Positions 6,464 to 37,595 of a DNA stretch of 64,000 nucleotides are shown in pieces. The translations under genes and the position numbers were made by a program. The notes beneath the pieces were generated by a model. It had not been told where the DNA came from. It ran no database searches and worked only from the letters and a program-made list of their open reading frames with translations. This DNA comes from Clostridiales bacterium (GTDB lineage Bacteria; Bacillota; Clostridia; Oscillospirales; CAG-272), in assembly GCA_022793655.1 (NCBI GenBank), contig JAAWDG010000013.1:128230-192229 (forward strand). Reading direction: 5' to 3'. Positions within the stretch are counted from its first letter, which is position 1; each line of letters begins with the position of its first letter.

Positions 6464-6540
6464 ACAAAAAATAAAACTTGCCTAAAGGCACATCGTAAAT
6501 CGATGTGCCTTTTATTTATGTAAAAAGGAGATATGCTCAA

Positions 6541-9500
6541 ATGAATTTTAAAAGAAGCATAGCGGTAGTATTGACTTTTATATTGTGCCTTTCTACCTTG
6601 ACCGGATTGGGGAAAAACGCCTCTGCCGCCGGAGAAGAAGATCAGGCATTATTGATTGGTTTTCCGCGCGCGGGAGATGCAAATCCTGAAAATTGGGTAC
6701 ACGGAGAACTCCATTTCATGAATGGCTGGGTATCGCCGGAAGTGCGGAAGTATTCTGTTTACACCATCGGCTCCTATACCGGAAATATTTGCTATTGTAT
6801 TGAGCCGGGTACTCCGCTTAGCCCCGGCGATTCATTCACACAAAATAAGGACGAGTCCTTTTGGGACAACTATCCGTCCGATTACAATCATACCATTCGC
6901 GCGGATATGATTAAGATTTTTATAGGAAGAATTCTGCAGTATGGCTACACAGGCACTGTATCACCATACTGGGTATCGCAGAATCCCGAAGAAGCAAATT
7001 GCATAGCGGAAGTGATTGCGACACAACTGCTCATATGGGAAACGATTGTGGGAGAACGGGACAGCGATTTCAACCATGTCAGTTCAGGTGAGTATGATGC
7101 GGTGTTGGACTGTATCTCGGATGCCCATCCTCTCCGTAACAAAATTTTAGGCTACTATAACAGCATTGCGGCAAGCGTACAGAGCCATGGCAAAGTCCCT
7201 TCTTTTTGTACGAGAAGTACGGGAGCGAAAGTTTACGAGTTGGAGTGGAATGGCAGCGAATACACAACAACACTGACTGATTCCAACAATGTACTCGGCA
7301 ATTATACCTTTTCTGCTGACAATGCCAATGTGAAGTGCAGTGTCAAAGGAAATCAATTGACGCTGACTGCGTCCTCCGCACCGAGTGCTCCGATAACCAT
7401 AACAGCAAGCAAGACCACTGGATCAAGAAAAGGATTGATTGTATGGAGCGATGGCATTTATAAACCCAGCGAAGGGTTACAAGACCTTGTCAGTTATACC
7501 CAGTCAATCACTGACCCAGTATCAGGCTTTATAAAGGTCAAAGTTTCCTATGGTTCTGCTAAAATTGTAAAAACTTCTGAGGACGGTAAGGTAGATGGTG
7601 TGTCGTTCCATATACAAGGCAATGGTATAGATACAATCGTGCAAACGAAAAACGGCGGACAGATTCAGATCGACAACCTCACGCCTGGCGTCTATACCGT
7701 GACCGAGCTGACAGAAGAAAAATACGCGCCACAGGAAGTACGCCGTGTTACTGTAGTCAGCGGTCAGACGGCAACTGTTACTTTCAGCAATGTGTTAAAG
7801 CGCGGTGATCTCGCGGTTACCAAGACCAGCGAGGACGGACTCAGCGAGGGTGCAAAATTCCACCTCTACGGAACCTCGCTCTCCGGATTGGCTGTAGACG
7901 AGTACGCCGTTGCCGACAGCACAGGAGTTGCGACCTTTGAAGATGTCCTCATCGGAACTGGATATACTCTCGAAGAAATGGATACGGCGATCCGCTATGT
8001 CGTGCCCGAAAAGCAGGCCGCAGCCATTGAGTGGAATAAGGTGACGAACAAGTCCTTTGATAATATCCTCAAGAAATGGCAGATCACCGTCACCAAAAGT
8101 GATTCCGAAACCGGAACTGCACAAGGCAACGTTTCTCTCGGCGGGGCTGTCTATGGCATTTTTAAGGGCGATCAGCTCGTGGACACCTATACCACCGATA
8201 CAAATGGCCAGTTCATCACCAAGTTCTATATCTGTGATTCTGATTGGAGTTTGCGCGAACTGTCAGCCTCCGAAGGATATCTCGTAACTTCCGGCAGCGA
8301 GCATATCGGCGCTGAACCGAAACTCTATACAGTAGAGTACAACAGCACGGCGCTGGATGTTCTCGAAACCGTTCAAAAAGGCAAGATAGCTGTCATTAAG
8401 CACCGCGATGACGGCGAAACGCAGATTGAAACGCCCGAAGCAGGTGCTGAATTTGAGGTGTTCCTCAAATCCTCCGGCAGTTATGACGCCGCAAAGGATT
8501 CCGAGCGAGATATTCTCGTCTGTGATAAATTTGGATTTGCTGAAAGCAAAGATTTGCCGTACGGCATCTATACCGTCAAACAAACAAAAGGCTGGGAGGG
8601 CAACGAGCTGATGGAACCCTTCGATGTGTTTGTAAAAGAGGACGGCGAAATCTATCGCTACCTGATCAACAATGCCACCTTTGAAGCGCTCATTGAAATC
8701 GTGAAAAAGGATATCGAGACAGGCAAGGTGATTCCTGCATCCGGTATAGGCTTTAAGGTGCGAAACACCGATACTGGAAAGTATATCGTGCAGCATATCA
8801 ACTATCCAACGCCGGTGGATATTGACATCTACTATACCGATAGAAGCGGGAAACTTATGATGCCTGAAGCGCTCCCTTATGGAAATTACGAAATCATTGA
8901 GCAGAATACCTGTTACGGATATGTTCTTGACCCAAGTCCCGTCCCCTTCACAGTAGACGGCAGCAAGACAACTATCACAGTAGAAAAATACAATATCGCG
9001 CAAAAAGGCACAATTACCGTAACCAAGACTGGCGAAGTGTTCGCCTCTGTGGTCGAATCGGGCGAAATCTATCAGCCTGTGTATTCGGTGCAGGGGCTTG
9101 CAGGTGCAGTTTATGAAGTAAGTGCCGCTGAAGATGTTTCTACCTTAGACGGCACACTCCGATACAGCAAAGGCGAAGTTGTGGCGATGATTGAGACTGA
9201 CAGCACAGGGATAGCGACCACAGAACCACTGTATCTCGGAAAATTCGATGTGCGGGAAATCAAAGCGCCTGATGGCATGCTTGTCAGCGATGAAGTGCAT
9301 TCTGTCGAACTGACCTACTCCGGACAGGAGGTTGAAATCACAGAAACGGAGACAGCATTCTATAACGAGCGCCAGCGTGTGCAGATTGATCTTGCTAAGA
9401 TCATGGTGCAGGATGAAAAATTTGAGATTGGCATGAATGGCGAAATCCTCTCTGTGCAGTTCGGACTGTTCGCTGCCGAGGATTTGACCGCCGCAGACGG

Positions 9501-10908
9501 CAGCGTGATCCCGGCAGACGGACTACTGGAGATTGTATCCTGTGATGAGAACGGTAAAGCGGCCTTTATCACGGATGTTCCCGTAGGTGCCAAGTTGTAT
9601 GTGAAAGAGGTTGCAACCAACGAACAATATATGCTCTCAGCTGAAAAATATCCTGTAACCTTCGAGTATGCGGGCCAGAATGTGGCAGCGGTCAACATTA
9701 CTGTAAATAAGGGCGAAGCTATTGAAAACGACATCATCTACGGCAATATTAAGGGACTAAAAATTGACCGTGAAACAGAGGAAACCATCGCAGGAGCTTT
9801 GTTCGGATTATTCCGTGCGGATGTGACCGAGTTTACAGAGGAAAATGCGATCCTTACGACAGAATCCAGTGTGGACGGCGTCTTCATCTTTGAGAATGTG
9901 CCCTTCAGCAATTGGATCGTCAAGGAATTGGTCCCCGCAGAAGGATTCCTGTCCAATGAGGAACTATATCCTGTAACTGTTTCTGAGAACGAGGAAATCA
10001 TTGAAATTACTGTAGTCAACGACCGCATTCCCGAAATTGGTACGACTGCTACAGTAGACGGCGAAAAGGAAATTTGTGCTACTGAAATCTTTACGCTTAC
10101 CGACACTGTGACATATAAGCATCTGATTCCTGGCAAGGAATATGTGCTGAAGGGCATCCTTATGGATAAAACTTCAAGCAAACCGCTTGTGATCGACGGG
10201 CAGGAAATCCATTCTATAGCAGTCTTCACTCCCGAAGCACCCACAGGAAAGGTAATCGTTAAATTCACCTTTGATTCCAAGTATATAAAGGCTGATACCG
10301 ACATTGTGGTGTTTGAACGCCTGTATAGAGACGGCAAAGAACTTGCCGTTCATGCGGATATTGAGGATGAAAGTCAGACCGTCAAAGTGAAAGTTCCCAA
10401 AATCGGAACACAGGCAACGGCAGAAAGAGAAAAGGAAATCACCACAGACGGCAGAGTGGTCATTGAGGACATTGTGTCTTACTTCAACCTAACCCCCGAC
10501 AAAGAATATATGCTAAAAGGGATACTCATGGACAAGACAGTCAATCAACCTTTGCTGATAAATGGTGAGGAAATTCGAAGCTCTTTCACCTTTAAACCAC
10601 AGGCATCCTCTGGCGAAATTACAGTATCCTTTGTATTTGATGCTGGCAGTCTTATGAAGGAAACAGAAATCGTTGTTTTTGAAACACTCTATCGGGAAGG
10701 CGTAGAGGTCGCTTTTCATACGGATATCGAGGATCAGGGACAAACAGTGAAAATCATACCACCAACGCCGCCTGTTTCTGACAATCCACAAACCGGTGTT
10801 AACAGCAATCTTGGTTTATGGCTTGGACTTGGCGCTGTTGCTGCCGGCGGACTGATCGCCTTGTGTGCTATATATTGGAAACAAAAAAAGGATGACGATG
10901 ACAAATGA
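6541..10908 (+). CDS. Cell-wall-anchored adhesin with a thioester domain, Cna-B-type repeats and two VaFE ester-bond repeats (1455 aa)
   Basis: Signal peptide. Thioester-domain motifs NICYCIEPG (Cys, ~6790) and TQLLIWE (7021-7041). Repeated SpaA/Cna-B-like modules (KTSEDG...GV/AxFxL/I). Two ~120-aa repeats end IVVFERLY and IVVFETLY. The C-terminal NPQTG (10783-10797) is followed by a TM helix and the basic tail KQKKDDDDK. Confidence 0.85.
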   Translation: MNFKRSIAVVLTFILCLSTLTGLGKNASAAGEEDQALLIGFPRAGDANPENWVHGELHFMNGWVSPEVRKYSVYTIGSYTGNICYCIEPGTPLSPGDSFTQNKDESFWDNYPSDYNHTIRADMIKIFIGRILQYGYTGTVSPYWVSQNPEEANCIAEVIATQLLIWETIVGERDSDFNHVSSGEYDAVLDCISDAHPLRNKILGYYNSIAASVQSHGKVPSFCTRSTGAKVYELEWNGSEYTTTLTDSNNVLGNYTFSADNANVKCSVKGNQLTLTASSAPSAPITITASKTTGSRKGLIVWSDGIYKPSEGLQDLVSYTQSITDPVSGFIKVKVSYGSAKIVKTSEDGKVDGVSFHIQGNGIDTIVQTKNGGQIQIDNLTPGVYTVTELTEEKYAPQEVRRVTVVSGQTATVTFSNVLKRGDLAVTKTSEDGLSEGAKFHLYGTSLSGLAVDEYAVADSTGVATFEDVLIGTGYTLEEMDTAIRYVVPEKQAAAIEWNKVTNKSFDNILKKWQITVTKSDSETGTAQGNVSLGGAVYGIFKGDQLVDTYTTDTNGQFITKFYICDSDWSLRELSASEGYLVTSGSEHIGAEPKLYTVEYNSTALDVLETVQKGKIAVIKHRDDGETQIETPEAGAEFEVFLKSSGSYDAAKDSERDILVCDKFGFAESKDLPYGIYTVKQTKGWEGNELMEPFDVFVKEDGEIYRYLINNATFEALIEIVKKDIETGKVIPASGIGFKVRNTDTGKYIVQHINYPTPVDIDIYYTDRSGKLMMPEALPYGNYEIIEQNTCYGYVLDPSPVPFTVDGSKTTITVEKYNIAQKGTITVTKTGEVFASVVESGEIYQPVYSVQGLAGAVYEVSAAEDVSTLDGTLRYSKGEVVAMIETDSTGIATTEPLYLGKFDVREIKAPDGMLVSDEVHSVELTYSGQEVEITETETAFYNERQRVQIDLAKIMVQDEKFEIGMNGEILSVQFGLFAAEDLTAADGSVIPADGLLEIVSCDENGKAAFITDVPVGAKLYVKEVATNEQYMLSAEKYPVTFEYAGQNVAAVNITVNKGEAIENDIIYGNIKGLKIDRETEETIAGALFGLFRADVTEFTEENAILTTESSVDGVFIFENVPFSNWIVKELVPAEGFLSNEELYPVTVSENEEIIEITVVNDRIPEIGTTATVDGEKEICATEIFTLTDTVTYKHLIPGKEYVLKGILMDKTSSKPLVIDGQEIHSIAVFTPEAPTGKVIVKFTFDSKYIKADTDIVVFERLYRDGKELAVHADIEDESQTVKVKVPKIGTQATAEREKEITTDGRVVIEDIVSYFNLTPDKEYMLKGILMDKTVNQPLLINGEEIRSSFTFKPQASSGEITVSFVFDAGSLMKETEIVVFETLYREGVEVAFHTDIEDQGQTVKIIPPTPPVSDNPQTGVNSNLGLWLGLGAVAAGGLIALCAIYWKQKKDDDDK

Positions 10909-29882: not shown

Positions 29883-30143
29883 ATGTTAAAATGTTTAAAG
29901 CGACTTGATGATGTTGGTAGATTAGTTCTGCCGAAAGAACTACGGAAGGCATTAGAGCTTACTCCTAAAGATTGGATAACAATTAAGCTGTCTGGTGAGG
30001 AGATGGTTATAAAAAAATTAGTGGATTCATGCGCATTTTGTGAAAGCAAGCAAAAACTAATAAAAATAAAAGAAAAGTTTGTTTGTGAGCACTGTCGTAA
30101 AGATTTGTGTAGAATTTATGATGAATTAAAACAAAAAATATAA
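29883..30143 (+). CDS. AbrB/SpoVT-like protein with a C-terminal CxxC...CxxC zinc ribbon
   Basis: KRLDDVGRLVLPKELRKALEL (AbrB-fold motif) plus CAFCE...CEHC. Confidence 0.6.
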   Translation: MLKCLKRLDDVGRLVLPKELRKALELTPKDWITIKLSGEEMVIKKLVDSCAFCESKQKLIKIKEKFVCEHCRKDLCRIYDELKQKI

Positions 30144-31372: not shown

Positions 31373-31488
31373 ATGATGCGCAAACTATAAAAATTTTTAC
31401 TACAAAACCGGTAGGCATCGGTTGTCGTGACCCGCCTTCAATCAATCGTTTTGATTATTTTCAAATTCATTGATTGGAGGATAGCAGC

Positions 31489-31944
31489 ATGAATGCTGAT
31501 AATAAGAAAATATGGGTAGATGGGAAATCTGTTGAAGTAACAGATGAAGTTTATGATGCCTATATGAAAGGTGATCGAAAAATACGCTACTTTGAAATAG
31601 ATTTAAAAACAGAGAGGATGCACATCAAAGGATGTGATAGAATCGCTGTTGTTCCAAGCCGTGAGGATTCATTGGACAGGCTAATGGACGATCAAGCCTA
31701 CCAGTTTTCTGATGACAGCGAAGGAGTGGAAGAATTTGTACTCCGCAAAGTTTCTTATGAAACACTCTACGAAGCATTGGACAAGCTGTCAAAGGATGAG
31801 CAGACTTTTGTCTTTGCAATGTTCTTTGAGAATAAAACGGAAAGGGAATTGGCTGCACTTATGGGTATTACACAGCCGGCGATCCACAAGAGAAAAATAA
31901 AAATACTTGATAAGCTAAAAAATTTTTTAAAAAATAGTATTTAG
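31489..31944 (+). CDS. Sigma-70 region-4-type (Tn916 Orf7-like) small sigma/HTH factor
   Basis: C-terminal LSKDEQTFVFAMFFENKTERELAALMGITQPAIHKRKIKILDKLK. RBS GGAGG. Confidence 0.7.
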   Translation: MNADNKKIWVDGKSVEVTDEVYDAYMKGDRKIRYFEIDLKTERMHIKGCDRIAVVPSREDSLDRLMDDQAYQFSDDSEGVEEFVLRKVSYETLYEALDKLSKDEQTFVFAMFFENKTERELAALMGITQPAIHKRKIKILDKLKNFLKNSI

Positions 31945-31953
31945 CGGTTATCA

Positions 31954-31997
31954 GCCCCTTCACTCAACGGCAAATAGAGTGAAGGGGCATTCTTATT
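31954..31997 (+). terminator. Intrinsic terminator after the sigma-like gene
   Basis: 12-bp stem GCCCCTTCACTC / GAGTGAAGGGGC, followed by ATTCTTATT. Confidence 0.65.
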
Positions 31998-32446
31998 GCC
32001 TCTGGTGATCATTGAAAACTGAATAGCACAGCGCATTTTTTACCTTCCTTCTGCTGTCGGGAAACCGGCAAGCCACAAGAGATCATCTCAGACGGTGCGG
32101 GGCATCCGTACCGAAGGTCATGACAGGCAGGAGGGACAATGATACTTGCGTCCAGTCACAGGTCGAGCGTTGAAGCAGAGTGTAATGCTAACCGAGCAAA
32201 TATGCGAAAGCATATTTGACCGCAAAGCTATGCTTTGCGTGCCGTCGCAACCAATGAGGGCGCCTCGGAGAGTTCCTCGGAGGGGTGAGATTCCCATGAG
32301 GTCTGAAAGGCTTTGCCTTTCATCTGCACAGACCGGAAAATGCGTTCCCGTGTATCCGAGGGGCGGCGAGGATCGAATATCGGTAAAGAACAAAACGATT
32401 GATACGAATACAAGGCGGCTGTTTCCAGAATGCAAACAACCGCCTT
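31998..32446 (+). ncRNA. Candidate large structured non-coding RNA / leader upstream of mazF (class unknown)
   Basis: Stacked hairpins: 32053-32073 (GAAA loop), 32091-32119, 32166-32189, 32197-32218 (9 bp, GAAA loop), 32221-32239, 32300-32334 and 32412-32446 (13 bp). More GC-rich than its flanks. The ORFs crossing it lack an RBS and look non-protein-like. Confidence 0.4.
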
Positions 32447-32467
32447 TTACTTATGGAGGAAAATATC

Positions 32468-32821
32468 ATGGAAAAAATCAAAAGAGGGCAAATCTACTAC
32501 GCCGAATTATCTCCAATAATCGGCAGTGAGCAAGGCGGCAACCGTCCCGTTGTTATCCTACAAAACGATAAAGGAAATCTCTACAGTAATACCACGATTG
32601 TAGCGGCAATCACAAGTGAGCTGGATAAAACCCATCTGCCCACGCATATCATTTTCACAGCGAACTGTATGGAAAAAACCTCTATGGTTTTGCTTGAGCA
32701 GATTAGGACGCTGGACAAATCTCGTCTTAACAATTGTATTGGGATAATGGATGATAGAACAATGCAGCGAATTGACCACGCAGTTGCAATCAGCTTGGGA
32801 CTTGAACATTTGGGGGATTAA
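32468..32821 (+). CDS. mazF: MazF/EndoA-type endoribonuclease toxin
   Basis: KRGQIYYAELSPIIGSEQGGNRPVVILQND...LPTHI...[14 protein letters not shown] closely resembles Bacillus EndoA/MazF. RBS GGAGGA. No antitoxin ORF lies upstream. Confidence 0.9.
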   Translation: MEKIKRGQIYYAELSPIIGSEQGGNRPVVILQNDKGNLYSNTTIVAAITSELDKTHLPTHIIFTANCMEKTSMVLLEQIRTLDKSRLNNCIGIMDDRTMQRIDHAVAISLGLEHLGD

Positions 32822-32823
32822 AA

Positions 32824-33162
32824 ATGAATGAAAAAAAGGGGTGGATGTATATCCGAAAAACACATCAACCGGTTATAAGTCTTGACGAACAAAAAGTGCA
32901 GCTCAGAAAATGGAGTGAATATCAGGGATACAAGATTGTTGGAGAAACGGCTATACTTGGCGGCAACGAAAAATCAAAGAATACTATAGTGAATATCCTC
33001 CACCAAGAGCCTCCAGCAAACGGTGCAACATATCTTATTACACCGTCTTTTTCTCACCTTTCCCGCAGCTTTTTCCAAACAGTTGAAATACTGAAAGAGC
33101 TGAATGAATACGGAATAGGCATTATTACGGCAAACAATCCAGTTGCTCCTAATCTAAAATAG
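32824..33162 (+). CDS. Stand-alone, probably inactive resolvase catalytic-domain protein (112 aa)
   Basis: WMYIRKTHQPVISLDEQ...YKIVGE...YLITPSFSHLSRSFFQTVEILKELNEYGIGIIT aligns to the serine-recombinase N-domain pattern (YxRVSTxxQ..SLxxQ...DRLSR...). The nucleophile Ser is Thr, and there is no DNA-binding domain. Starts 3 nt after the mazF stop. Confidence 0.6.
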   Translation: MNEKKGWMYIRKTHQPVISLDEQKVQLRKWSEYQGYKIVGETAILGGNEKSKNTIVNILHQEPPANGATYLITPSFSHLSRSFFQTVEILKELNEYGIGIITANNPVAPNLK

Positions 33163-33251
33163 AAAATATACAGTAGCCAGAAATAGAATTAGAAGATAAC
33201 GAAACAAATTGCGCTAATGCATCACAGTTTATAATATGAGGTGAAGAAACA

Positions 33252-33404
33252 ATGAATCAGACCGATCTAAATAACGCATCTTTTGCTTACAGCGTGAGCA
33301 TGCTTCGAATGCTGCTCAGAATGAAGCTTATTACCAAAGAAGAATACGATCAAATCGCGCATATCAGCGCAGAGTTTTATGGCGTAGAAGTTTATTGTGT
33401 CTGA
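33252..33404 (+). CDS. Possible 50-aa ORF
   Basis: ATG ORF MNQTDLNNASFAYSVSMLRMLLRMKLITKEEYDQIAHISAEFYGVEVYCV with a weak SD (gaggtgaag). Too short for the ORF track. Confidence 0.3.
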   Translation: MNQTDLNNASFAYSVSMLRMLLRMKLITKEEYDQIAHISAEFYGVEVYCV

Positions 33405-33542: not shown

Positions 33543-35102
33543 ATGCAAATAACGGAAATTGCTGCTGAACGAAAGCAAAATACAAACGATATTCGCTTGG
33601 CAGCCTATTGCCGGGTATCAAGTGATTCCACCGACCAGCTCCACTCCTTTGCCACACAGATTCGGTACTACAAGGATTATGAAAAGAAGCATCCGCAGTA
33701 CAAGCTGATAGACATCTATGCAGATGAAGGGCTGACAGGCACGGATATAAAAAAGCGCGATGAGCAAAACCGATTGATCCGTGATTGCAAGAAAGGCAAA
33801 ATTGACCGCATCATCGTCAAATCTGTATCCCGCTTTGCCAGAAACACGCGGGAGCTTCTCGTCACACTGCGAATGCTGAAGGAAATCGGCGTGAGCGTGT
33901 ACTTCGAGGAACAAGGCATTGATACTGACAAAATCAATATGGAAATGATTGTAGCATTCCCCGGTATGGCGGCTCAACAAGAGTCGGAAACCATATCGGG
34001 GAATATGCGTTGGAGTTACCAGAAAAGGATAGGATCGGGCGAGTTTAATTGCACCTATCCGGCATATGGATTCAGCCTTGTAAAAGGAAAGCTGGAAATC
34101 AACGAATCGGAAGCGTATGTGGTGCGGAGAATATTTAATTTGTATCTTCAAGGAATTGGGATGCAACGGATTGCCAATCTGCTCAATGAAGAAAACATTC
34201 CCCGCAGAAAAGAAACGCAGAAATGGCACTGCTCAACTGTTAAATATGTTTTGAATAACGAGAGATACATGGGTGACGCTATTCTCCAAAAGAGTTATAC
34301 AACTGAAACCCTGCCGTTTCGCAAGCGCAGGAACAACGGCGAATTTCCAAAGGTCTATGTGGAAAACAGTAATCCGCCTATCGTTAGTAGAGAGGTATAT
34401 CAAACGGCACAGAAGCTGCAAGAAGAACGGGCTGTTCACAGGTGCAGTCGACATTCTACCTATCCGCTGTCAAAGATGCTTCGTTGTCCCGACTGCGGCA
34501 GAGCTTTCCGACGACAATTTGTAGCCGGCAAAGCTTATTGGCTATGCGCAGGCAAAGCGGCAGGATCAACTGACTGTAAAAATAGGCGCGTGAAAGAGGA
34601 TAAAGTTTATGAATCCTTTAATCAGATGGTATGGAAACTAAAGGCTTATCGAGACCAGCTTCTCACCCCCCTGATTCGTCAGATGGAATCTATGCAGAGC
34701 CAATCCAGTCATTTACAGGAACCAATCCGAGCCATTGATAAGGAAATCGCTGATCTTAGCGCACAGAACCTTGTAGTTGCAAGATTTCATACTAAAGGTA
34801 TACTGAATGCCGCAGACTTCTCCGCACAAGCAGATGCGTTAAGCAGTAAAATCCGTGAGCTTCGCGCAAAACGCCATAAATTGCTTGCTATGGATGAAAC
34901 GAACGAACTGATCAATACCTTGTGCGACCTGAACAAAAAAATACGAGAGTATGAACCTACTGGCGGCTTTGATGAGGAACTATTTGAGCAGATCGTTGTT
35001 TCCGTCGTCGTGAACGATAACGCCTCGCTCACCTTTAAGTTGCTCGGCGGTGTAGAATTAACTGAAGAAATCCCATTGAAAGGAAGGTGTAAATCCACAT
35101 GA
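33543..35102 (+). CDS. Large serine recombinase 1 (519 aa)
   Basis: Catalytic motif AAYCRVSSDSTDQ, resolvase domain, recombinase domain, zinc ribbon (CPDCG...C..GK...C), and a coiled-coil tail. Confidence 0.9.
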   Translation: MQITEIAAERKQNTNDIRLAAYCRVSSDSTDQLHSFATQIRYYKDYEKKHPQYKLIDIYADEGLTGTDIKKRDEQNRLIRDCKKGKIDRIIVKSVSRFARNTRELLVTLRMLKEIGVSVYFEEQGIDTDKINMEMIVAFPGMAAQQESETISGNMRWSYQKRIGSGEFNCTYPAYGFSLVKGKLEINESEAYVVRRIFNLYLQGIGMQRIANLLNEENIPRRKETQKWHCSTVKYVLNNERYMGDAILQKSYTTETLPFRKRRNNGEFPKVYVENSNPPIVSREVYQTAQKLQEERAVHRCSRHSTYPLSKMLRCPDCGRAFRRQFVAGKAYWLCAGKAAGSTDCKNRRVKEDKVYESFNQMVWKLKAYRDQLLTPLIRQMESMQSQSSHLQEPIRAIDKEIADLSAQNLVVARFHTKGILNAADFSAQADALSSKIRELRAKRHKLLAMDETNELINTLCDLNKKIREYEPTGGFDEELFEQIVVSVVVNDNASLTFKLLGGVELTEEIPLKGRCKST

Positions 35103-35953
35103 AGAACCGTAATATCCCATTCGGATATCAGTATCAAAACGGAGTTGTAACGCTGCATCCGATAGAAGAACAGGTACTCCGGCAGATTGCCAGAGATTAC
35201 CTGGCCGGTCAGTCGCTACTGAAAATTGCAGAGGGTTTGAATGCTAATCAGGTTGAATATCAGCCCGGTATTATTGGCTGGAACAAAGCGAGGATCATGC
35301 GTCTGCTTGAAGATAAGCGCTATCTTGGTGACGGCGGATATCCCGCCATTATCGATGCGGATACTTTTGCTTCGATTCAAATTAAGAAGTACAACCGAAA
35401 CAAATTGAAAAATATAGACAGGCAATCAGACATTTTCCAAATTACCGTCCCTGTCCTGTGTCCCGACTGTGGCACAGAGATGCACCGCAGACACGACAGT
35501 CGATGCAAATGCACCGAGCGGTGGTTTTGTCGCAATAAGGATTGCAAAACCCTGATTAAACTATCAGACCACGATCTGCTCTCACAGATCACAGCAATTC
35601 TCAATCAGCTCGTCGTTCATCCCGAACGGATAAAAGGCGATAAATTGCAGGAATTGGCTCCAACCACTGAACAGAGAAGGCTTGACAATGAAATCGGCAG
35701 GATGATAGATACCAAAGTGCACGAGAAAGAAACACTACAAAAGAAGATGTTAGAGATGGTTTCCCTCAAATACAAATTGATTCCGTCAACTGTCGGAACT
35801 GCATACAGATTAAAAGCGGACTTCGAGCAATCGGGTCCGCTTTCTGTATTCTCAGCTGAACTTTTTGGAAATACAGTAAACGCCATTTATCTAAACAGGG
35901 ATAGCACTATTGAACTTAAACTGCTGAACGGTCAGCGAATCGGAAAGGAGTAA
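35099..35953 (+). CDS. Recombinase-domain/zinc-ribbon protein lacking the catalytic resolvase domain (284 aa)
   Basis: Starts directly with the recombinase-domain pattern IPFGYQYQNGVVTLHPIEEQVLRQIARDYLAGQS...WNKARIMRLLEDKRYLGDG, followed by CPDCG...C zinc-ribbon cysteines. No YxRVS motif. ATGA overlap with the previous gene. Confidence 0.75.
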   Translation: MKNRNIPFGYQYQNGVVTLHPIEEQVLRQIARDYLAGQSLLKIAEGLNANQVEYQPGIIGWNKARIMRLLEDKRYLGDGGYPAIIDADTFASIQIKKYNRNKLKNIDRQSDIFQITVPVLCPDCGTEMHRRHDSRCKCTERWFCRNKDCKTLIKLSDHDLLSQITAILNQLVVHPERIKGDKLQELAPTTEQRRLDNEIGRMIDTKVHEKETLQKKMLEMVSLKYKLIPSTVGTAYRLKADFEQSGPLSVFSAELFGNTVNAIYLNRDSTIELKLLNGQRIGKE

Positions 35954-35957
35954 AAGT

Positions 35958-37595
35958 ATGTCAGAAACAACAGTACAACCACCGAGGGTAGTTCGGGTAA
36001 TTCCTGCAACTATTGATGTGGCAAAGGAAATAAAGGAAGCCTACCGTCAGATTCGGGTAGCCGCCTACTGCCGAGTATCTACTAATCAGGAAGAACAACT
36101 CAATAGCTACGAAGTGCAGAAAAACTACTACGCCGAGAAAATCAATAGCGAGCCGAAATGGACACTGGTGGATATCTTTGCCGATAAGGGAATCACTGGC
36201 ACCAGCGTCAAGAAGCGGGATGAATTCAACCGCATGATTCGAATGTGCAAGCGTGGTAAAATCGATATGATTATCACCAAATCCATCAGCCGTTTTGCAA
36301 GAAACACAGTAGACTGCCTTACTTATGTGCGAAAACTAAAGGATATGAATGTGGATGTCTTTTTTGAAGAACAGGGCATTCACAGCACACAGCCTGGCGC
36401 TGAATTCTATATTACTATTTACGGATGCATCGCACAAAGCGAATCAGAGAACATAAGCGCTAATGTCAAATGGGGCAAAGCACAGAGCGCTAAGGAAGGT
36501 AACGTATCATTTCACTACAAAAACTTCCTTGGCTACCGCAAGGGCGCAGACGGCAAACCGGAAATTGTTCCCGAAGAAGCGGAGATCATTCGCACTATTT
36601 ACAAACGCTTCCTTGCGGGAGACAGCTTTGGAAGTATTATAGCGTATTTGGAGGAACGCCGCATCCTGTCGCCAAGCGGAAAAGAGAAATGGCAGTATTC
36701 CACCATCCAATCAATTCTCTCAAATGAACGCTATAAAGGTGACGTTATTATAAACAAGACTTATATAGTAGACTGCATCAGCAAGAAAGTGAAGGTCAAC
36801 AATGGCGAACGGACTAAATACTATGTCAAGAATAATCATCCCGCCATTATCGATGCTGGCACATTCGGCAGAGTTCAGGAAGAATTGGCAAGACGATCCG
36901 GCAAAAGAAAAGTCAAGATGGTCGGCACGAAAACCGAACAAGGAAAATACTCCGGTAAATATGCGTTAACTGAACTGCTGGTCTGCGGAGAGTGCGGAAC
37001 ACCCTATCGCCGATGCACATGGACGGTCAAAGGACAAAAGAAAATTGTGTGGCGTTGTATCAACCGGTTGGACTTCGGCAAGAAATACTGTCATACATCC
37101 CCGACCATAGAAGAAAGCGTCCTGCATAGCGCCATCATGACCGCAATCATGGAACAAGCACAACAGAACGTCGAAGTATTAAAAATGCTTAAACTGCACA
37201 TTGGCATGGGAATCAAAGCAGATGATACAGAAGACAAGAGCCTTGATATGCAAATCCGTATAGCAGAGATTGACGCTGAATTCAAGCAAATGCTTCAAGC
37301 AATTTCTTCCGAAAATTTAGAAACCTACGATGAAACAAAAATGACAGAGCTAATGTACGAAAAGCAAAGCCTGCAACAGCAGCTTTCGCAGATCGCAGAC
37401 AGACAACAAAAGCGAGAGAATGCAAAATCCCGATTAGCCGAAATCGTCACCATCCTTGACGGATTGAAAAATCACCCGATGGATTACGATGATACCCTCG
37501 TCCGCCAAATACTCGAATGCGTGGTAGTCGAGAACAAAGAACGAATTAAAGTAGTATTCGTCGGCGGTCTTAAAGCGGAACAGGAACTTCAATAA
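35958..37595 (+). CDS. Large serine recombinase 2 (545 aa)
   Basis: AAYCRVSTNQEEQ catalytic motif, recombinase domain, CGECGTPYRRC...WRC zinc ribbon, and a coiled coil. Confidence 0.9.
   Translation: MSETTVQPPRVVRVIPATIDVAKEIKEAYRQIRVAAYCRVSTNQEEQLNSYEVQKNYYAEKINSEPKWTLVDIFADKGITGTSVKKRDEFNRMIRMCKRGKIDMIITKSISRFARNTVDCLTYVRKLKDMNVDVFFEEQGIHSTQPGAEFYITIYGCIAQSESENISANVKWGKAQSAKEGNVSFHYKNFLGYRKGADGKPEIVPEEAEIIRTIYKRFLAGDSFGSIIAYLEERRILSPSGKEKWQYSTIQSILSNERYKGDVIINKTYIVDCISKKVKVNNGERTKYYVKNNHPAIIDAGTFGRVQEELARRSGKRKVKMVGTKTEQGKYSGKYALTELLVCGECGTPYRRCTWTVKGQKKIVWRCINRLDFGKKYCHTSPTIEESVLHSAIMTAIMEQAQQNVEVLKMLKLHIGMGIKADDTEDKSLDMQIRIAEIDAEFKQMLQAISSENLETYDETKMTELMYEKQSLQQQLSQIADRQQKRENAKSRLAEIVTILDGLKNHPMDYDDTLVRQILECVVVENKERIKVVFVGGLKAEQELQ

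What the first reader, a model, noticed from the sequence alone, without database searches (positions are those of the whole stretch)
32468..33162. MazF toxin translationally coupled to a degenerate stand-alone resolvase domain instead of a MazE antitoxin
The ICE mazF (117 aa) is a clear EndoA/MazF orthologue, but no MazE/RHH/AbrB ORF precedes it. Its stop is followed 3 nt later by a 112-aa ORF that aligns to the catalytic N-domain of serine recombinases (YIRKT.Q..SLDEQ, YKIVGE, SHLSR...VEILKELNEYGIGI). In that ORF the nucleophilic Ser is replaced by Thr (YxRVS becomes YIRKT), DRLSR is replaced by SHLSR, and there is no DNA-binding domain.

A toxin followed by a small, catalytically doubtful domain protein in reverse gene order is the layout of several type II toxin-antitoxin (TA) families. 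I do not know of a resolvase-fold antitoxin for MazF. Alternatively, the small protein is a regulatory subunit of the adjacent recombinases and MazF is neutralised by the upstream RNA.
Basis: partly seen in the sequence, partly recalled or inferred. Interest (0 to 1): 0.7.

Follow-up and report, generated by a model that had tools for sequence, protein, structure and literature searches.

The report
MazF with truncated dead resolvase gene
An intact MazF RNase gene at the head of a conjugative element's recombinase operon is followed by a truncated, catalytically dead resolvase-domain gene that related elements often lack, so it is probably a decaying accessory gene and not the toxin's antidote.

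Summary
mazF (32468-32821, EndoA-type, catalytic Arg and Thr intact) is followed 2 nt after its stop by a 112-codon ORF. That ORF has a serine-recombinase catalytic fold, Thr at the nucleophile position, His at the R68 position and no DNA-binding domain.

The pair is not a self-contained toxin-antitoxin (TA) cassette. It heads a conserved operon: sigma-like gene, ~400-nt leader (Rfam pemK RNA) ending in a covarying hairpin, mazF, pseudo-resolvase, SHOCT_2, then three recombinase genes.

Among 78 species-level loci with this leader, 40 carry mazF. Only 7 of those carry the pseudo-resolvase. The closest MazF (89% identical) has none.

The window's copy is also a relic. A 16-nt deletion and a nonsense codon removed the alphaE helix and the acidic tail that most relatives keep. 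The antitoxin reading is therefore poorly supported here, though it is not excluded for full-length relatives.

The upstream RNA also occurs without mazF, so it is not a dedicated antitoxin.

MazF does look active and controlled at the RNA level. A UAC[AU]UA site sits before the ribosome-binding site in 35/37 mazF-bearing leaders against 4/33 others. The EndoA site UACAUA is depleted in the recombinase genes only where mazF is present.

Interest is moderate.

The parts
31474..31944 (+). Gene for a sigma-70 region-4-like protein (156 aa). This is the constant upstream partner of the leader.
   Evidence: Pfam Sigma70_r4 5.6e-6. Homologues are encoded in 88 of the fetched loci.
31953..31997 (+). 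GC-rich hairpin plus T-rich tail after the sigma-like gene, terminator-like.
   Evidence: Read directly from the sequence: AGCCCCTTCACTC...GAGTGAAGGGGC then ATTCTTATT. The simple scan did not call it.
32044..32467 (+). Conserved structured leader RNA of the recombinase operon. Approximate extent; the 5' limit was not mapped.
   Evidence: Blocks of identity with the leaders of L012, L014, L020 and L024. A 28-nt signature at 32120-32147 found 118 genomic stretches.
32136..32299 (+). Rfam RF02913 pemK RNA core, with an insertion of about 100 nt in its first hairpin.
   Evidence: 61.2 bits against a gathering score of 34.8. The same model hits all 16 tested loci, including 9 without mazF.
32412..32446 (+). 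Terminator-like hairpin at the 3' end of the leader.
   Evidence: -15.4 kcal/mol, z -2.3. In 25 leaders, 12 pairs are predicted and 8 show compensatory changes.
32448..32453 (+). UACUUA, a near-cognate EndoA-type site between the hairpin and the ribosome-binding site (GGAGG, 32456-32460).
   Evidence: A UAC[AU]U[AU] site is present in 35/37 mazF-bearing leaders and 4/33 leaders without mazF. The sites are UACUUA x29, UACAUA x5 and UACAUU x1. B. subtilis EndoA cuts U/ACAUA (PMC11780869).
32468..32821 (+). mazF (pemK/endoA type), 117 aa, apparently active.
   Evidence: The catalytic Arg is kept in 51/51 and the Thr in 49/51 operon MazFs. dN/dS is 0.12 against the nearest relative.
32824..33162 (+). 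Truncated pseudo-resolvase ORF, 112 aa: the core of a serine-recombinase catalytic domain only.
   Evidence: A 16-nt deletion relative to L008-L010 creates the stop. dN/dS is 0.43. Net charge is +3, against -8 to -14 for full-length relatives.
33163..33239 (+). Decayed relic of the alphaE and acidic-tail coding region of the pseudo-resolvase gene.
   Evidence: The DNA still aligns with the tail-coding part of L008-L010. It reads EIELEDNETNCANASQFII* in another frame, behind a CAG-to-TAG change.
33252..33404 (+). Gene for a small SHOCT_2 protein (50 aa).
   Evidence: Pfam SHOCT_2 6.6e-7. It is present in most serine-recombinase triplet operons with or without mazF.
33543..35102 (+). Large serine recombinase 1 (519 aa).
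   Evidence: Resolvase, Recombinase and Zn_ribbon_recom domains.
35099..35953 (+). Recombinase-domain protein without a catalytic domain (284 aa).
   Evidence: PF07508 and a weak Zn ribbon only. The same architecture is seen in all related operons.
35958..37595 (+). Large serine recombinase 3 (545 aa), the last gene of the element before the host queuosine genes.
   Evidence: The flank carries QueF, QueC and related genes.
29883..30143 (+). 86-aa AbrB/MazE-domain plus zinc-ribbon protein. Considered as a remote antitoxin and judged unlikely.
   Evidence: PF04014 1.3e-5, 25.5 bits against a cut-off of 24.7. Homologues occur only in copies of this same element, in none of 118 other leader loci.

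Best explanation
Shown:
- The mazF/112-aa-ORF pair is the head of the recombination operon of an integrative conjugative element (ICE) from Clostridia.
- The gene order is: sigma-like gene; a ~400-nt structured leader (core = Rfam pemK RNA) ending in a covarying terminator-like hairpin; mazF; pseudo-resolvase; SHOCT_2; large serine recombinase; a recombinase lacking its catalytic domain; large serine recombinase.
- Across related elements the leader and the recombinases are the constant parts. mazF is present in about half of the operons. The pseudo-resolvase is present in about a sixth of the mazF-bearing operons and has been lost or gained repeatedly.
- The window's pseudo-resolvase is a truncated allele. 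It keeps only the beta-alpha core of the catalytic domain, has Thr and His at two catalytic positions, and has lost the alphaE helix and the acidic tail with its conserved C-terminal motif.

Inferred:
- This ORF is a decaying accessory gene and is not what keeps this MazF harmless.
- MazF is instead held silent behind the leader hairpin. It is made only when the operon is switched on for excision or transfer.
- It is then an active EndoA-type RNase. It recognises a UAC[AU]UA site in its own 5' UTR, giving negative feedback by cleavage or by occluding the ribosome-binding site.
- The co-transcribed recombinase mRNAs have been purged of UACAUA, so they escape cleavage. The result would be a transient, self-limiting growth arrest or host-mRNA shut-off coupled to excision, not classic antitoxin-buffered killing.
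- Full-length pseudo-resolvases in other elements are probably optional modulators. They may damp MazF through the acidic tail or bind the recombinases through alphaE.
For: Anatomy and fold.

ICE context: MobL relaxase, VirB4-like ATPase, TraG coupling protein and ArdA.

The module is conserved down to about 25-30% identity of the small protein.

Leader:
- RF02913 is present in every tested locus, with or without mazF.
- The hairpin has 8 of 12 pairs with compensatory changes.

The small gene is dispensable:
- Among 78 loci the counts are MazF-SHOCT-recombinase 18, MazF-small-SHOCT-recombinase 7, MazF-recombinase 6, p133-MazF 6, MazF alone 3.
- The two types interleave on the MazF tree, and the catalytic Arg is kept in 51/51.
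- The 89%-identical MazF of L082 joins SHOCT_2 directly.

Truncation of the window's copy:
- A 16-nt deletion plus a nonsense codon.
- Of 82 relatives, 72 have the C-terminal motif and 70 have an acidic tail; the window copy has neither.
- In the AF2 model of P0023 the alphaE helix spans residues 161-184 and the tail is disordered; the window copy stops before this region.
- dN/dS is 0.43, against 0.12 for MazF.

MazF is active and linked to the RNA:
- A UAC[AU]U[AU] site follows the hairpin in 35/37 mazF-bearing leaders and 4/33 leaders without mazF.
- UACAUA in recombinase coding regions: 4 observed against 15.4 expected with mazF, and 25 against 17.8 without.
- UACAU observed/expected is 0.58 against 1.06, per-locus Mann-Whitney p = 0.005, with flat controls.
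- EndoA specificity is U/ACAUA (PMC11780869).
Against: - No binding or toxicity test was possible.
- The small gene is almost never found without mazF (13 of about 14 lineages, against a base rate of about 61%). This points to some functional or historical link to MazF.
- The 112-codon core is still an open frame with dN/dS below 1, and the exact allele is found in more than 200 metagenome blocks. It may retain a function.
- The motif statistics treat loci as independent although they are related.
- Most leader sites are UACUUA and not the proven UACAUA. The specificity of this MazF clade is assumed from about 60% identity to EndoA.
- The U-tract after the hairpin is short, so its action as a terminator is not proven.
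Confidence: 0.6

Rival explanations
1. One reading: the 112-aa pseudo-resolvase is a reverse-order type II antitoxin that binds and neutralises MazF.
For: - The ORF starts 2 nt after the mazF stop and has its own ribosome-binding site.
- Relatives overlap the mazF stop by 4-8 nt.
- The family is nearly always found next to mazF.
- Full-length members are acidic, with a disordered acidic tail and a conserved C-terminal motif, as in MazE-type antitoxins.
- An unrelated acidic 133-aa protein sits next to mazF in tyrosine-recombinase operons.
Against: - MazF keeps its catalytic residues and persists without the small gene in 33 of 40 operons, including the closest relative.
- The window copy lacks the tail and alphaE and is net basic.
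- No MazF alignment column separates partnered from unpartnered toxins after multiple-test correction.
Confidence: 0.12
2. The pseudo-resolvase is a regulatory or decoy subunit of the adjacent large serine recombinases. It would act like a directionality factor or a dominant-negative partner through the catalytic-domain and alphaE interface. Its position after mazF would be historical.
For: - It is homologous to recombinase catalytic domains; its profile hits the third recombinase type best.
- Full-length members keep an alphaE-like helix.
- They also carry an N-terminal peptide that copies the recombinase N-terminal motif Y-x-R-V-(G/A/S).
- The family is found only in operons with the SHOCT and serine-recombinase triplet.
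Against: - It is rare in triplet operons without mazF (1 of about 20).
- The window copy lacks alphaE, the main dimer interface of serine recombinases.
- Most triplet operons work without it.
Confidence: 0.15
3. The upstream pemK RNA is a type III-like RNA antitoxin that sequesters MazF.
For: - The RNA is always upstream of these mazF genes.
- No protein antitoxin is consistently present.
- A near-cognate UACUUA site is conserved only in mazF-bearing leaders.
Against: - The same RNA, scoring above the Rfam cut-off, precedes operons with no mazF (9 of 16 tested loci).
- It is a single copy, not a tandem array.
- It ends in a terminator-like hairpin typical of a cis-acting leader.
Confidence: 0.08
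4. A conventional antitoxin acts in trans: the 86-aa AbrB/MazE-domain protein at 29883-30143 neutralises this MazF, which allowed the small gene to decay.
For: Pfam MazE_antitoxin hit just above the cut-off, in the same element.
Against: - It lies 2.3 kb away behind two other genes.
- It has a C-terminal zinc ribbon instead of an acidic tail.
- It is absent from all 118 other leader loci, including L082 with the closest MazF.
- AbrB domains are common transcription regulators.
Confidence: 0.05

Closest known systems
B. subtilis EndoA/EndoAI (MazF/MazE, ydcDE; PDB 4MDX, 4ME7), a type II toxin-antitoxin system
   Same: The toxin is a close homologue (E 6e-34, catalytic Arg and Thr conserved). 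The sequence-motif signals fit the EndoA site U/ACAUA.
   Different: No mazE gene lies upstream. The only adjacent small gene is downstream, unrelated to MazE, optional across relatives and truncated here. The toxin sits inside a recombinase operon behind a structured leader.
Rfam RF02913 pemK RNA motif (cis-regulatory candidate found by comparative genomics; Weinberg et al. 2017, PMC5737381)
   Same: It is present upstream of this mazF with a score well above the cut-off.
   Different: Here it proves to be the core of a longer leader (~400 nt) that also precedes recombinase operons with no pemK gene. The paper's main text does not discuss the motif and its supplement was not available.
Catalytic domains of large serine recombinases (TP901-1 integrase 3BVP; C. 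difficile conjugative-transposon recombinase 3G13)
   Same: Same beta-alpha fold (TM 0.63-0.76) and a Pfam Resolvase match.
   Different: It stands alone, with Thr in place of the Ser nucleophile and His in place of R68. It has no alphaE helix and no recombinase or zinc-ribbon DNA-binding domains.
Triplet serine-integrase modules of streptococcal ICEs (Ambroset et al. 2016, PMC4701971)
   Same: Three adjacent recombinase genes at one end of an ICE.
   Different: There all three carry the catalytic domain; here the middle one lacks it. No mazF, leader RNA or pseudo-resolvase is described there.
C. difficile 023_CTn2 (PMC6814731, Table 1)
   Same: The listed gene order is sigma-70 factor, PemK/MazF, hypothetical protein, serine recombinase.
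   Different: It has a single recombinase. The module is only listed, not analysed. The identity of the hypothetical protein was not checked here.
Reverse-order type II toxin-antitoxin systems (higBA, hicAB, mqsRA) and the type III system ToxIN
   Same: The toxin gene comes first with a coupled downstream gene, or an RNA partner serves a Kid/MazF-fold RNase. This comparison rests on general knowledge and was not tested here.
   Different: The consistent co-occurrence of toxin and partner that defines those systems is not seen here for the protein. The RNA is not a repeat array and is not toxin-specific.

Membership tests
MazF/PemK endoribonuclease (PF02452) | Full-length match to the family profile and to solved MazF structures | tested here: met
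   PF02452 2.5e-29, profile positions 1-109 of 109; 4MDX/4ME7 at 6e-34.
MazF/PemK endoribonuclease (PF02452) | Catalytic Arg (EndoA R25) and Thr (T48) present | tested here: met
   GGNRPV and AAITS in the window. Arg is kept in 51/51 and Thr in 49/51 operon MazFs.
MazF/PemK endoribonuclease (PF02452) | Sequence-specific RNA cleavage | not testable with these tools
   Indirect only: UACAUA is depleted in co-transcribed genes.
Type II toxin-antitoxin module (toxin plus cognate protein antitoxin) | The toxin gene is consistently accompanied by the same adjacent antitoxin gene | tested here: not met
   The small gene follows mazF in only 7 of 40 mazF-bearing operons, and the closest MazF lacks it.
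Type II toxin-antitoxin module (toxin plus cognate protein antitoxin) | The antitoxin binds and neutralises the toxin | not testable with these tools
Type II toxin-antitoxin module (toxin plus cognate protein antitoxin) | The antitoxin has a toxin-neutralising, usually disordered and acidic segment | tested here: not met
   The window copy ends before the alphaE helix and tail and has a net charge of +3. Relatives do have such a tail.
Serine recombinase (resolvase/invertase/integrase) | Catalytic-domain fold | tested here: met
Serine recombinase (resolvase/invertase/integrase) | Nucleophilic Ser and the Arg residues of the active site (R8, R68, R71 in gamma-delta resolvase numbering) | tested here: not met
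   Thr13 replaces the Ser and His78 replaces R68. The R8 and R71 equivalents are kept.
Serine recombinase (resolvase/invertase/integrase) | AlphaE helix and a DNA-binding domain | tested here: not met
   The Pfam match stops at profile position 101 of 145. The model ends after beta4 and no further domain is present.
Rfam RF02913 pemK RNA | Covariance-model score above the curated gathering score | tested here: met
   61.2 bits against 34.8.
Rfam RF02913 pemK RNA | Located in the 5' UTR of pemK genes, as the family name implies | tested here: inconclusive
   This holds in the window. Nine of 16 tested loci have the RNA and no pemK gene.
Integrative conjugative element | Relaxase, coupling protein, type IV secretion ATPase and an integrase module on one contiguous element | tested here: met
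   MobL relaxase, TraG/VirD4, an AAA_10 VirB4-like ATPase and two large serine recombinases. The element ends were not mapped.

The most novel reading that the evidence does not exclude
Two linked readings remain open.

1. Full-length members of this pseudo-resolvase family are a previously undescribed, optional MazF partner. They would use a dead recombinase catalytic domain as scaffold and an acidic tail with a conserved C-terminal motif as the neutralising peptide, possibly tying MazF activity to the serine recombinases.

2. The mazF genes behind the pemK leader form an antitoxin-less, self-limiting toxin circuit. The toxin is attenuated by a leader hairpin, targets its own 5' UTR, and spares recombinase mRNAs that have lost its site. 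The circuit would arrest the donor cell while the element excises.
Probability: 0.3. Interest if true: 0.75.

Novelty: new variant of a known kind. Interest (0 to 1): 0.5.

Why it matters
If the main reading holds, hundreds of gut Clostridia mobile elements carry an active MazF RNase with no obligatory protein antitoxin. The toxin would be wired into the excision and integration operon and controlled through RNA.

This would change three things:
- It would re-annotate the Rfam pemK RNA as a leader of recombinase operons.
- It would offer a testable example of toxin-site avoidance shaping co-transcribed genes.
- It would show how an element could couple host growth arrest to its own excision.

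For the specific ORF in the finding, the value is mostly corrective. It is a truncated member of an undescribed family of dead resolvase-domain proteins, not a demonstrated new antitoxin.

Tried and rejected
- Word-index protein search with the 112-aa protein found only itself. A genome scan with its peptides found nothing. The family alignment was too divergent for back-translated patterns. The exhaustive representative search and a profile search were what opened the family.
No interface test exists.
- The Weinberg 2017 main text does not mention pemK and no supplement is held. The original description of the motif could not be read.
- The simple terminator scan did not call the leader hairpin because its loop is longer than 8 nt. 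Folding and covariation were used instead.
- The AbrB/MazE-like 86-aa protein was rejected as a general antitoxin because it is private to this element.
- ORFs inside the leader (127 aa on the + strand, 105 aa on the - strand) were rejected as genes. Their frames are broken at different places in related leaders.
- SHOCT_2 was considered as a universal MazF partner. It is equally present in operons without mazF. Rare MazF-SHOCT_2 fusions may be stop-codon losses or assembly errors.
- A column-by-column test for MazF residues that track the presence of the small gene gave nothing after Bonferroni correction.
- Raw motif densities were confounded by base composition, since control motifs also differed. 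They were replaced by synonymous-codon shuffles.
Full report
**1. Observation**

The window holds a 117-codon mazF at 32468-32821. It matches PF02452 at 2.5e-29 over the whole profile and B. subtilis EndoA structures 4MDX/4ME7 at 6e-34, with GG-x-RPV and AAIT intact.

Its TAA stop is followed by two bases and the ATG of a 112-codon ORF (32824-33162). A G-run lies 7 nt upstream of that ATG.

The ORF matches the Pfam Resolvase N-domain at 2.4e-9, but only over profile positions 4-101 of 145. An AF2 model built on 39 relatives is confident (pLDDT 87, pTM 0.81). Its best structural matches are catalytic domains of large serine recombinases: TP901-1 integrase 3bvp_B (E 2e-6, TM 0.74), 3guv and 3g13.

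In an alignment with gamma-delta resolvase and the window's own recombinases, Thr13 sits at the nucleophile position and Ser77/His78 sit at D67/R68.

The 523-nt gap upstream of mazF has no credible ORF. It carries Rfam RF02913 pemK RNA at 32136-32299, 61.2 bits against a cut-off of 34.8.

The surrounding genes make this an integrative conjugative element (ICE): MobL relaxase, VirB4-like ATPase, TraG coupling protein and ArdA. Its recombinase end abuts host queuosine genes.

**2. The small protein's family and its neighbours**

The 112-aa protein is rare. An exhaustive search of 1.84 billion representatives gave 14 hits at E <= 1e-3. A profile search gave 69 clusters of 130-220 aa.

Wherever enough context was available, relatives down to about 25% identity sit in the same place. 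The order is a sigma70_r4-like or HTH gene, a 400-540-nt gap with the pemK RNA, a PemK/MazF gene whose stop overlaps the small gene's start, SHOCT_2, a large serine recombinase, a ~290-aa recombinase-domain protein without a catalytic domain, and a second large serine recombinase. The pair is therefore part of a conserved six-gene module and not a chance juxtaposition.

**3. The window's copy is truncated**

Most relatives have two features the window protein lacks.
- An N-terminal peptide that copies the recombinase N-terminus (V-A-V-Y-M-R-V-G-N-x-E-Q-L) is present in 67 of 82.
- An acidic C-terminal region ends in a conserved P-x-hydrophobic-x-M type motif. The motif is present in 72 of 82, and the tail is acidic in 70 of 82.

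In the AF2 model of the 201-aa member P0023, the core is followed by an alphaE-like helix (residues 161-184) and a disordered tail.

A DNA alignment with the nearest relatives (65% protein identity, L008-L010) shows a 16-nt deletion in the window that creates the stop at 33160. A CAG-to-TAG change lies further on. The tail-coding DNA is still recognisable in another frame (EIELEDNETNCANASQFII*).

The window protein is net basic (+3), whereas full-length members are -8 to -14. Against the nearest relative, dN/dS is 0.43 for the small ORF, 0.12 for MazF and 0.29 for SHOCT_2.

**4. Is the small gene needed by MazF?**

I scanned one genome per species with a 28-nt signature of the leader and obtained 118 stretches. 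I then classified what follows the leader, using my own ORF calls and HMMs.

Counts for the 78 loci with enough downstream sequence:

| Gene order after the leader | Loci |
|---|---|
| MazF - SHOCT - recombinases | 18 |
| MazF - small - SHOCT - recombinases | 7 |
| MazF - recombinase | 6 |
| 133-aa protein - MazF - tyrosine recombinases | 6 |
| MazF followed by other genes | 3 |
| SHOCT - recombinases (no MazF) | 14 |
| recombinases directly | 5 |
| small - SHOCT - recombinases (no MazF) | 1 |
| other, mostly single serine or tyrosine integrases | 18 |

So 33 of 40 mazF-bearing operons lack the small gene.

On a MazF tree the two kinds interleave. The catalytic Arg is kept in 51/51 and the Thr in 49/51.

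The MazF closest to the window's (P0080 = L082, 89% identical) is joined directly to SHOCT_2 with a clean junction.

No MazF alignment column distinguishes partnered from unpartnered toxins after multiple-test correction.

Conversely, the small gene is almost never seen without mazF: about 13 of 14 lineages, against a base rate of about 61%. It is therefore linked to mazF historically or functionally, but mazF does not depend on it. This is the reverse of what a toxin-antitoxin pair predicts.

**5. The RNA**

RF02913 scored above its cut-off in all 16 loci I tested, nine of which have no mazF. It is therefore the core of a general leader of recombinase operons and not a MazF-specific antitoxin.

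The leader ends in a hairpin directly before the first gene. In the window the hairpin is at 32412-32446, at -15.4 kcal/mol. Across 25 leaders, 8 of 12 pairs show compensatory changes. It is followed by a short U-run.

A homologue of the sigma-like protein is encoded in 88 loci.

**6. Signs that MazF is active and tied to the RNA**

- Right after the hairpin and 5-15 nt before the ribosome-binding site, mazF-bearing leaders keep a UAC[AU]U[AU] site: 35 of 37, against 4 of 33 leaders without mazF. The sites are UACUUA x29, UACAUA x5 and UACAUU x1. The window has UACUUA at 32448.
- B. subtilis EndoA cuts U/ACAUA (PMC11780869).
- Against synonymous-codon shuffles, UACAUA in the recombinase coding regions is 4 observed against 15.4 expected in mazF-bearing operons, and 25 against 17.8 in operons without mazF.
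- The 5-mer UACAU has observed/expected 0.58 against 1.06, per-locus Mann-Whitney p = 0.005. Reverse-complement and neighbouring motifs do not differ between the groups.

Caveats: the loci are related, so these p-values are optimistic, and the specificity of this MazF clade is inferred from homology.

**7. Interpretation**

The best-supported reading is that the 112-aa ORF is a decaying allele of an optional accessory gene and not the antidote of this MazF.

MazF appears to be an antitoxin-independent or only optionally buffered RNase. It would be kept silent behind the leader, expressed together with the recombinases, fed back on its own 5' UTR, and avoided by the recombinase messages. That would fit a transient arrest coupled to excision or transfer. 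The anatomy and the comparative counts are shown. The attenuation, the self-targeting and the arrest are inferred.

The rivals are as follows.
It is still possible for full-length relatives because of their acidic disordered tails, and because an unrelated acidic 133-aa protein sits next to mazF in tyrosine-recombinase operons.
- A recombinase decoy or regulator acting through alphaE.
- An RNA antitoxin.
- The private 86-aa AbrB/MazE-like protein at 29883-30143, which is absent from all 118 other loci.

**8. Comparison with known systems and novelty**

MazF, resolvase domains, the pemK RNA and triplet serine integrases are all known kinds (PMC4701971).

A gene list for C. difficile 023_CTn2 shows the order sigma factor, PemK/MazF, hypothetical protein, serine recombinase, without comment (PMC6814731).

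I found no paper describing the pseudo-resolvase family, the leader's association with recombinase operons irrespective of pemK, or the motif avoidance.

The finding is best filed as a new variant of known kinds. The specific ORF is ordinary to the point of being a relic. The operon logic around it is the more interesting part.

Noticed in passing
window 32044-32467; loci L026-L143: The Rfam pemK RNA is the core of a ~400-nt leader. This leader precedes recombinase operons (serine-recombinase triplets, single serine recombinases, tyrosine integrases) of many Clostridia mobile elements whether or not a pemK/mazF gene is present. A sigma70_r4-like gene lies upstream in 88 loci.
   Followed up: partly
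window 32448-32453; recombinase genes 33543-37595 and homologues in L026-L143: A UAC[AU]UA site between the leader hairpin and the ribosome-binding site is nearly specific to mazF-bearing leaders. The EndoA site UACAUA is about 5-fold depleted in recombinase coding regions only when mazF is in the operon.
   Followed up: yes
window 35099-35953: The middle gene of the recombinase triplet has the Recombinase and zinc-ribbon domains but no catalytic domain. This holds in every related operon seen, unlike the streptococcal triplets described in the literature.
   Followed up: partly
L037, L055, L084, L086, L092, L098, L119, L120, L134 (first gene after the leader): Operons without mazF often begin with a ~47-aa hydrophobic DUF3789 peptide. 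L037 has mazF followed by this peptide. The first position of these operons may generally hold a growth-affecting gene.
   Followed up: no
L026, L043, L057, L069, L101, L140: A strongly acidic ~133-aa protein with no Pfam match (C-terminus ...VTAAELGMQL) lies between the leader and mazF in operons that continue with tyrosine recombinases. It is a candidate upstream partner of MazF.
   Followed up: partly
proteins P0115, P0137: MazF fused in frame to a SHOCT_2 domain. These cases are rare and could be a real fusion, a stop-codon loss or an assembly error.
   Followed up: no
window 29883-30143: An 86-aa protein with an AbrB/MazE-type domain and a C-terminal CxxC...CxxC zinc ribbon. It is found only in copies of this same element.
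   Followed up: partly
small-protein family (P0003-P0074; L076, L087, L115 and others): Between subfamilies whose globular cores are only about 20% identical, the N-terminal peptide (K-K-x-x-x-Y-x-R-V-G-N-x-E-Q-L) and the C-terminal end (D-E-S-P-H-I-Q-M or P-T-M-S-M-G-G-G-M) are much better conserved than the core. This suggests that short linear motifs carry the function.
   Followed up: partly
window 6505-10908: A 1467-aa surface protein with thioester, SpaA and T-Q ester-bond domains, carried as ICE cargo or as a mating adhesin.
   Followed up: no
L089 7264-7446: Two adjacent Rfam Gut-1 RNA hits on opposite strands, downstream of a related recombinase operon.
   Followed up: no
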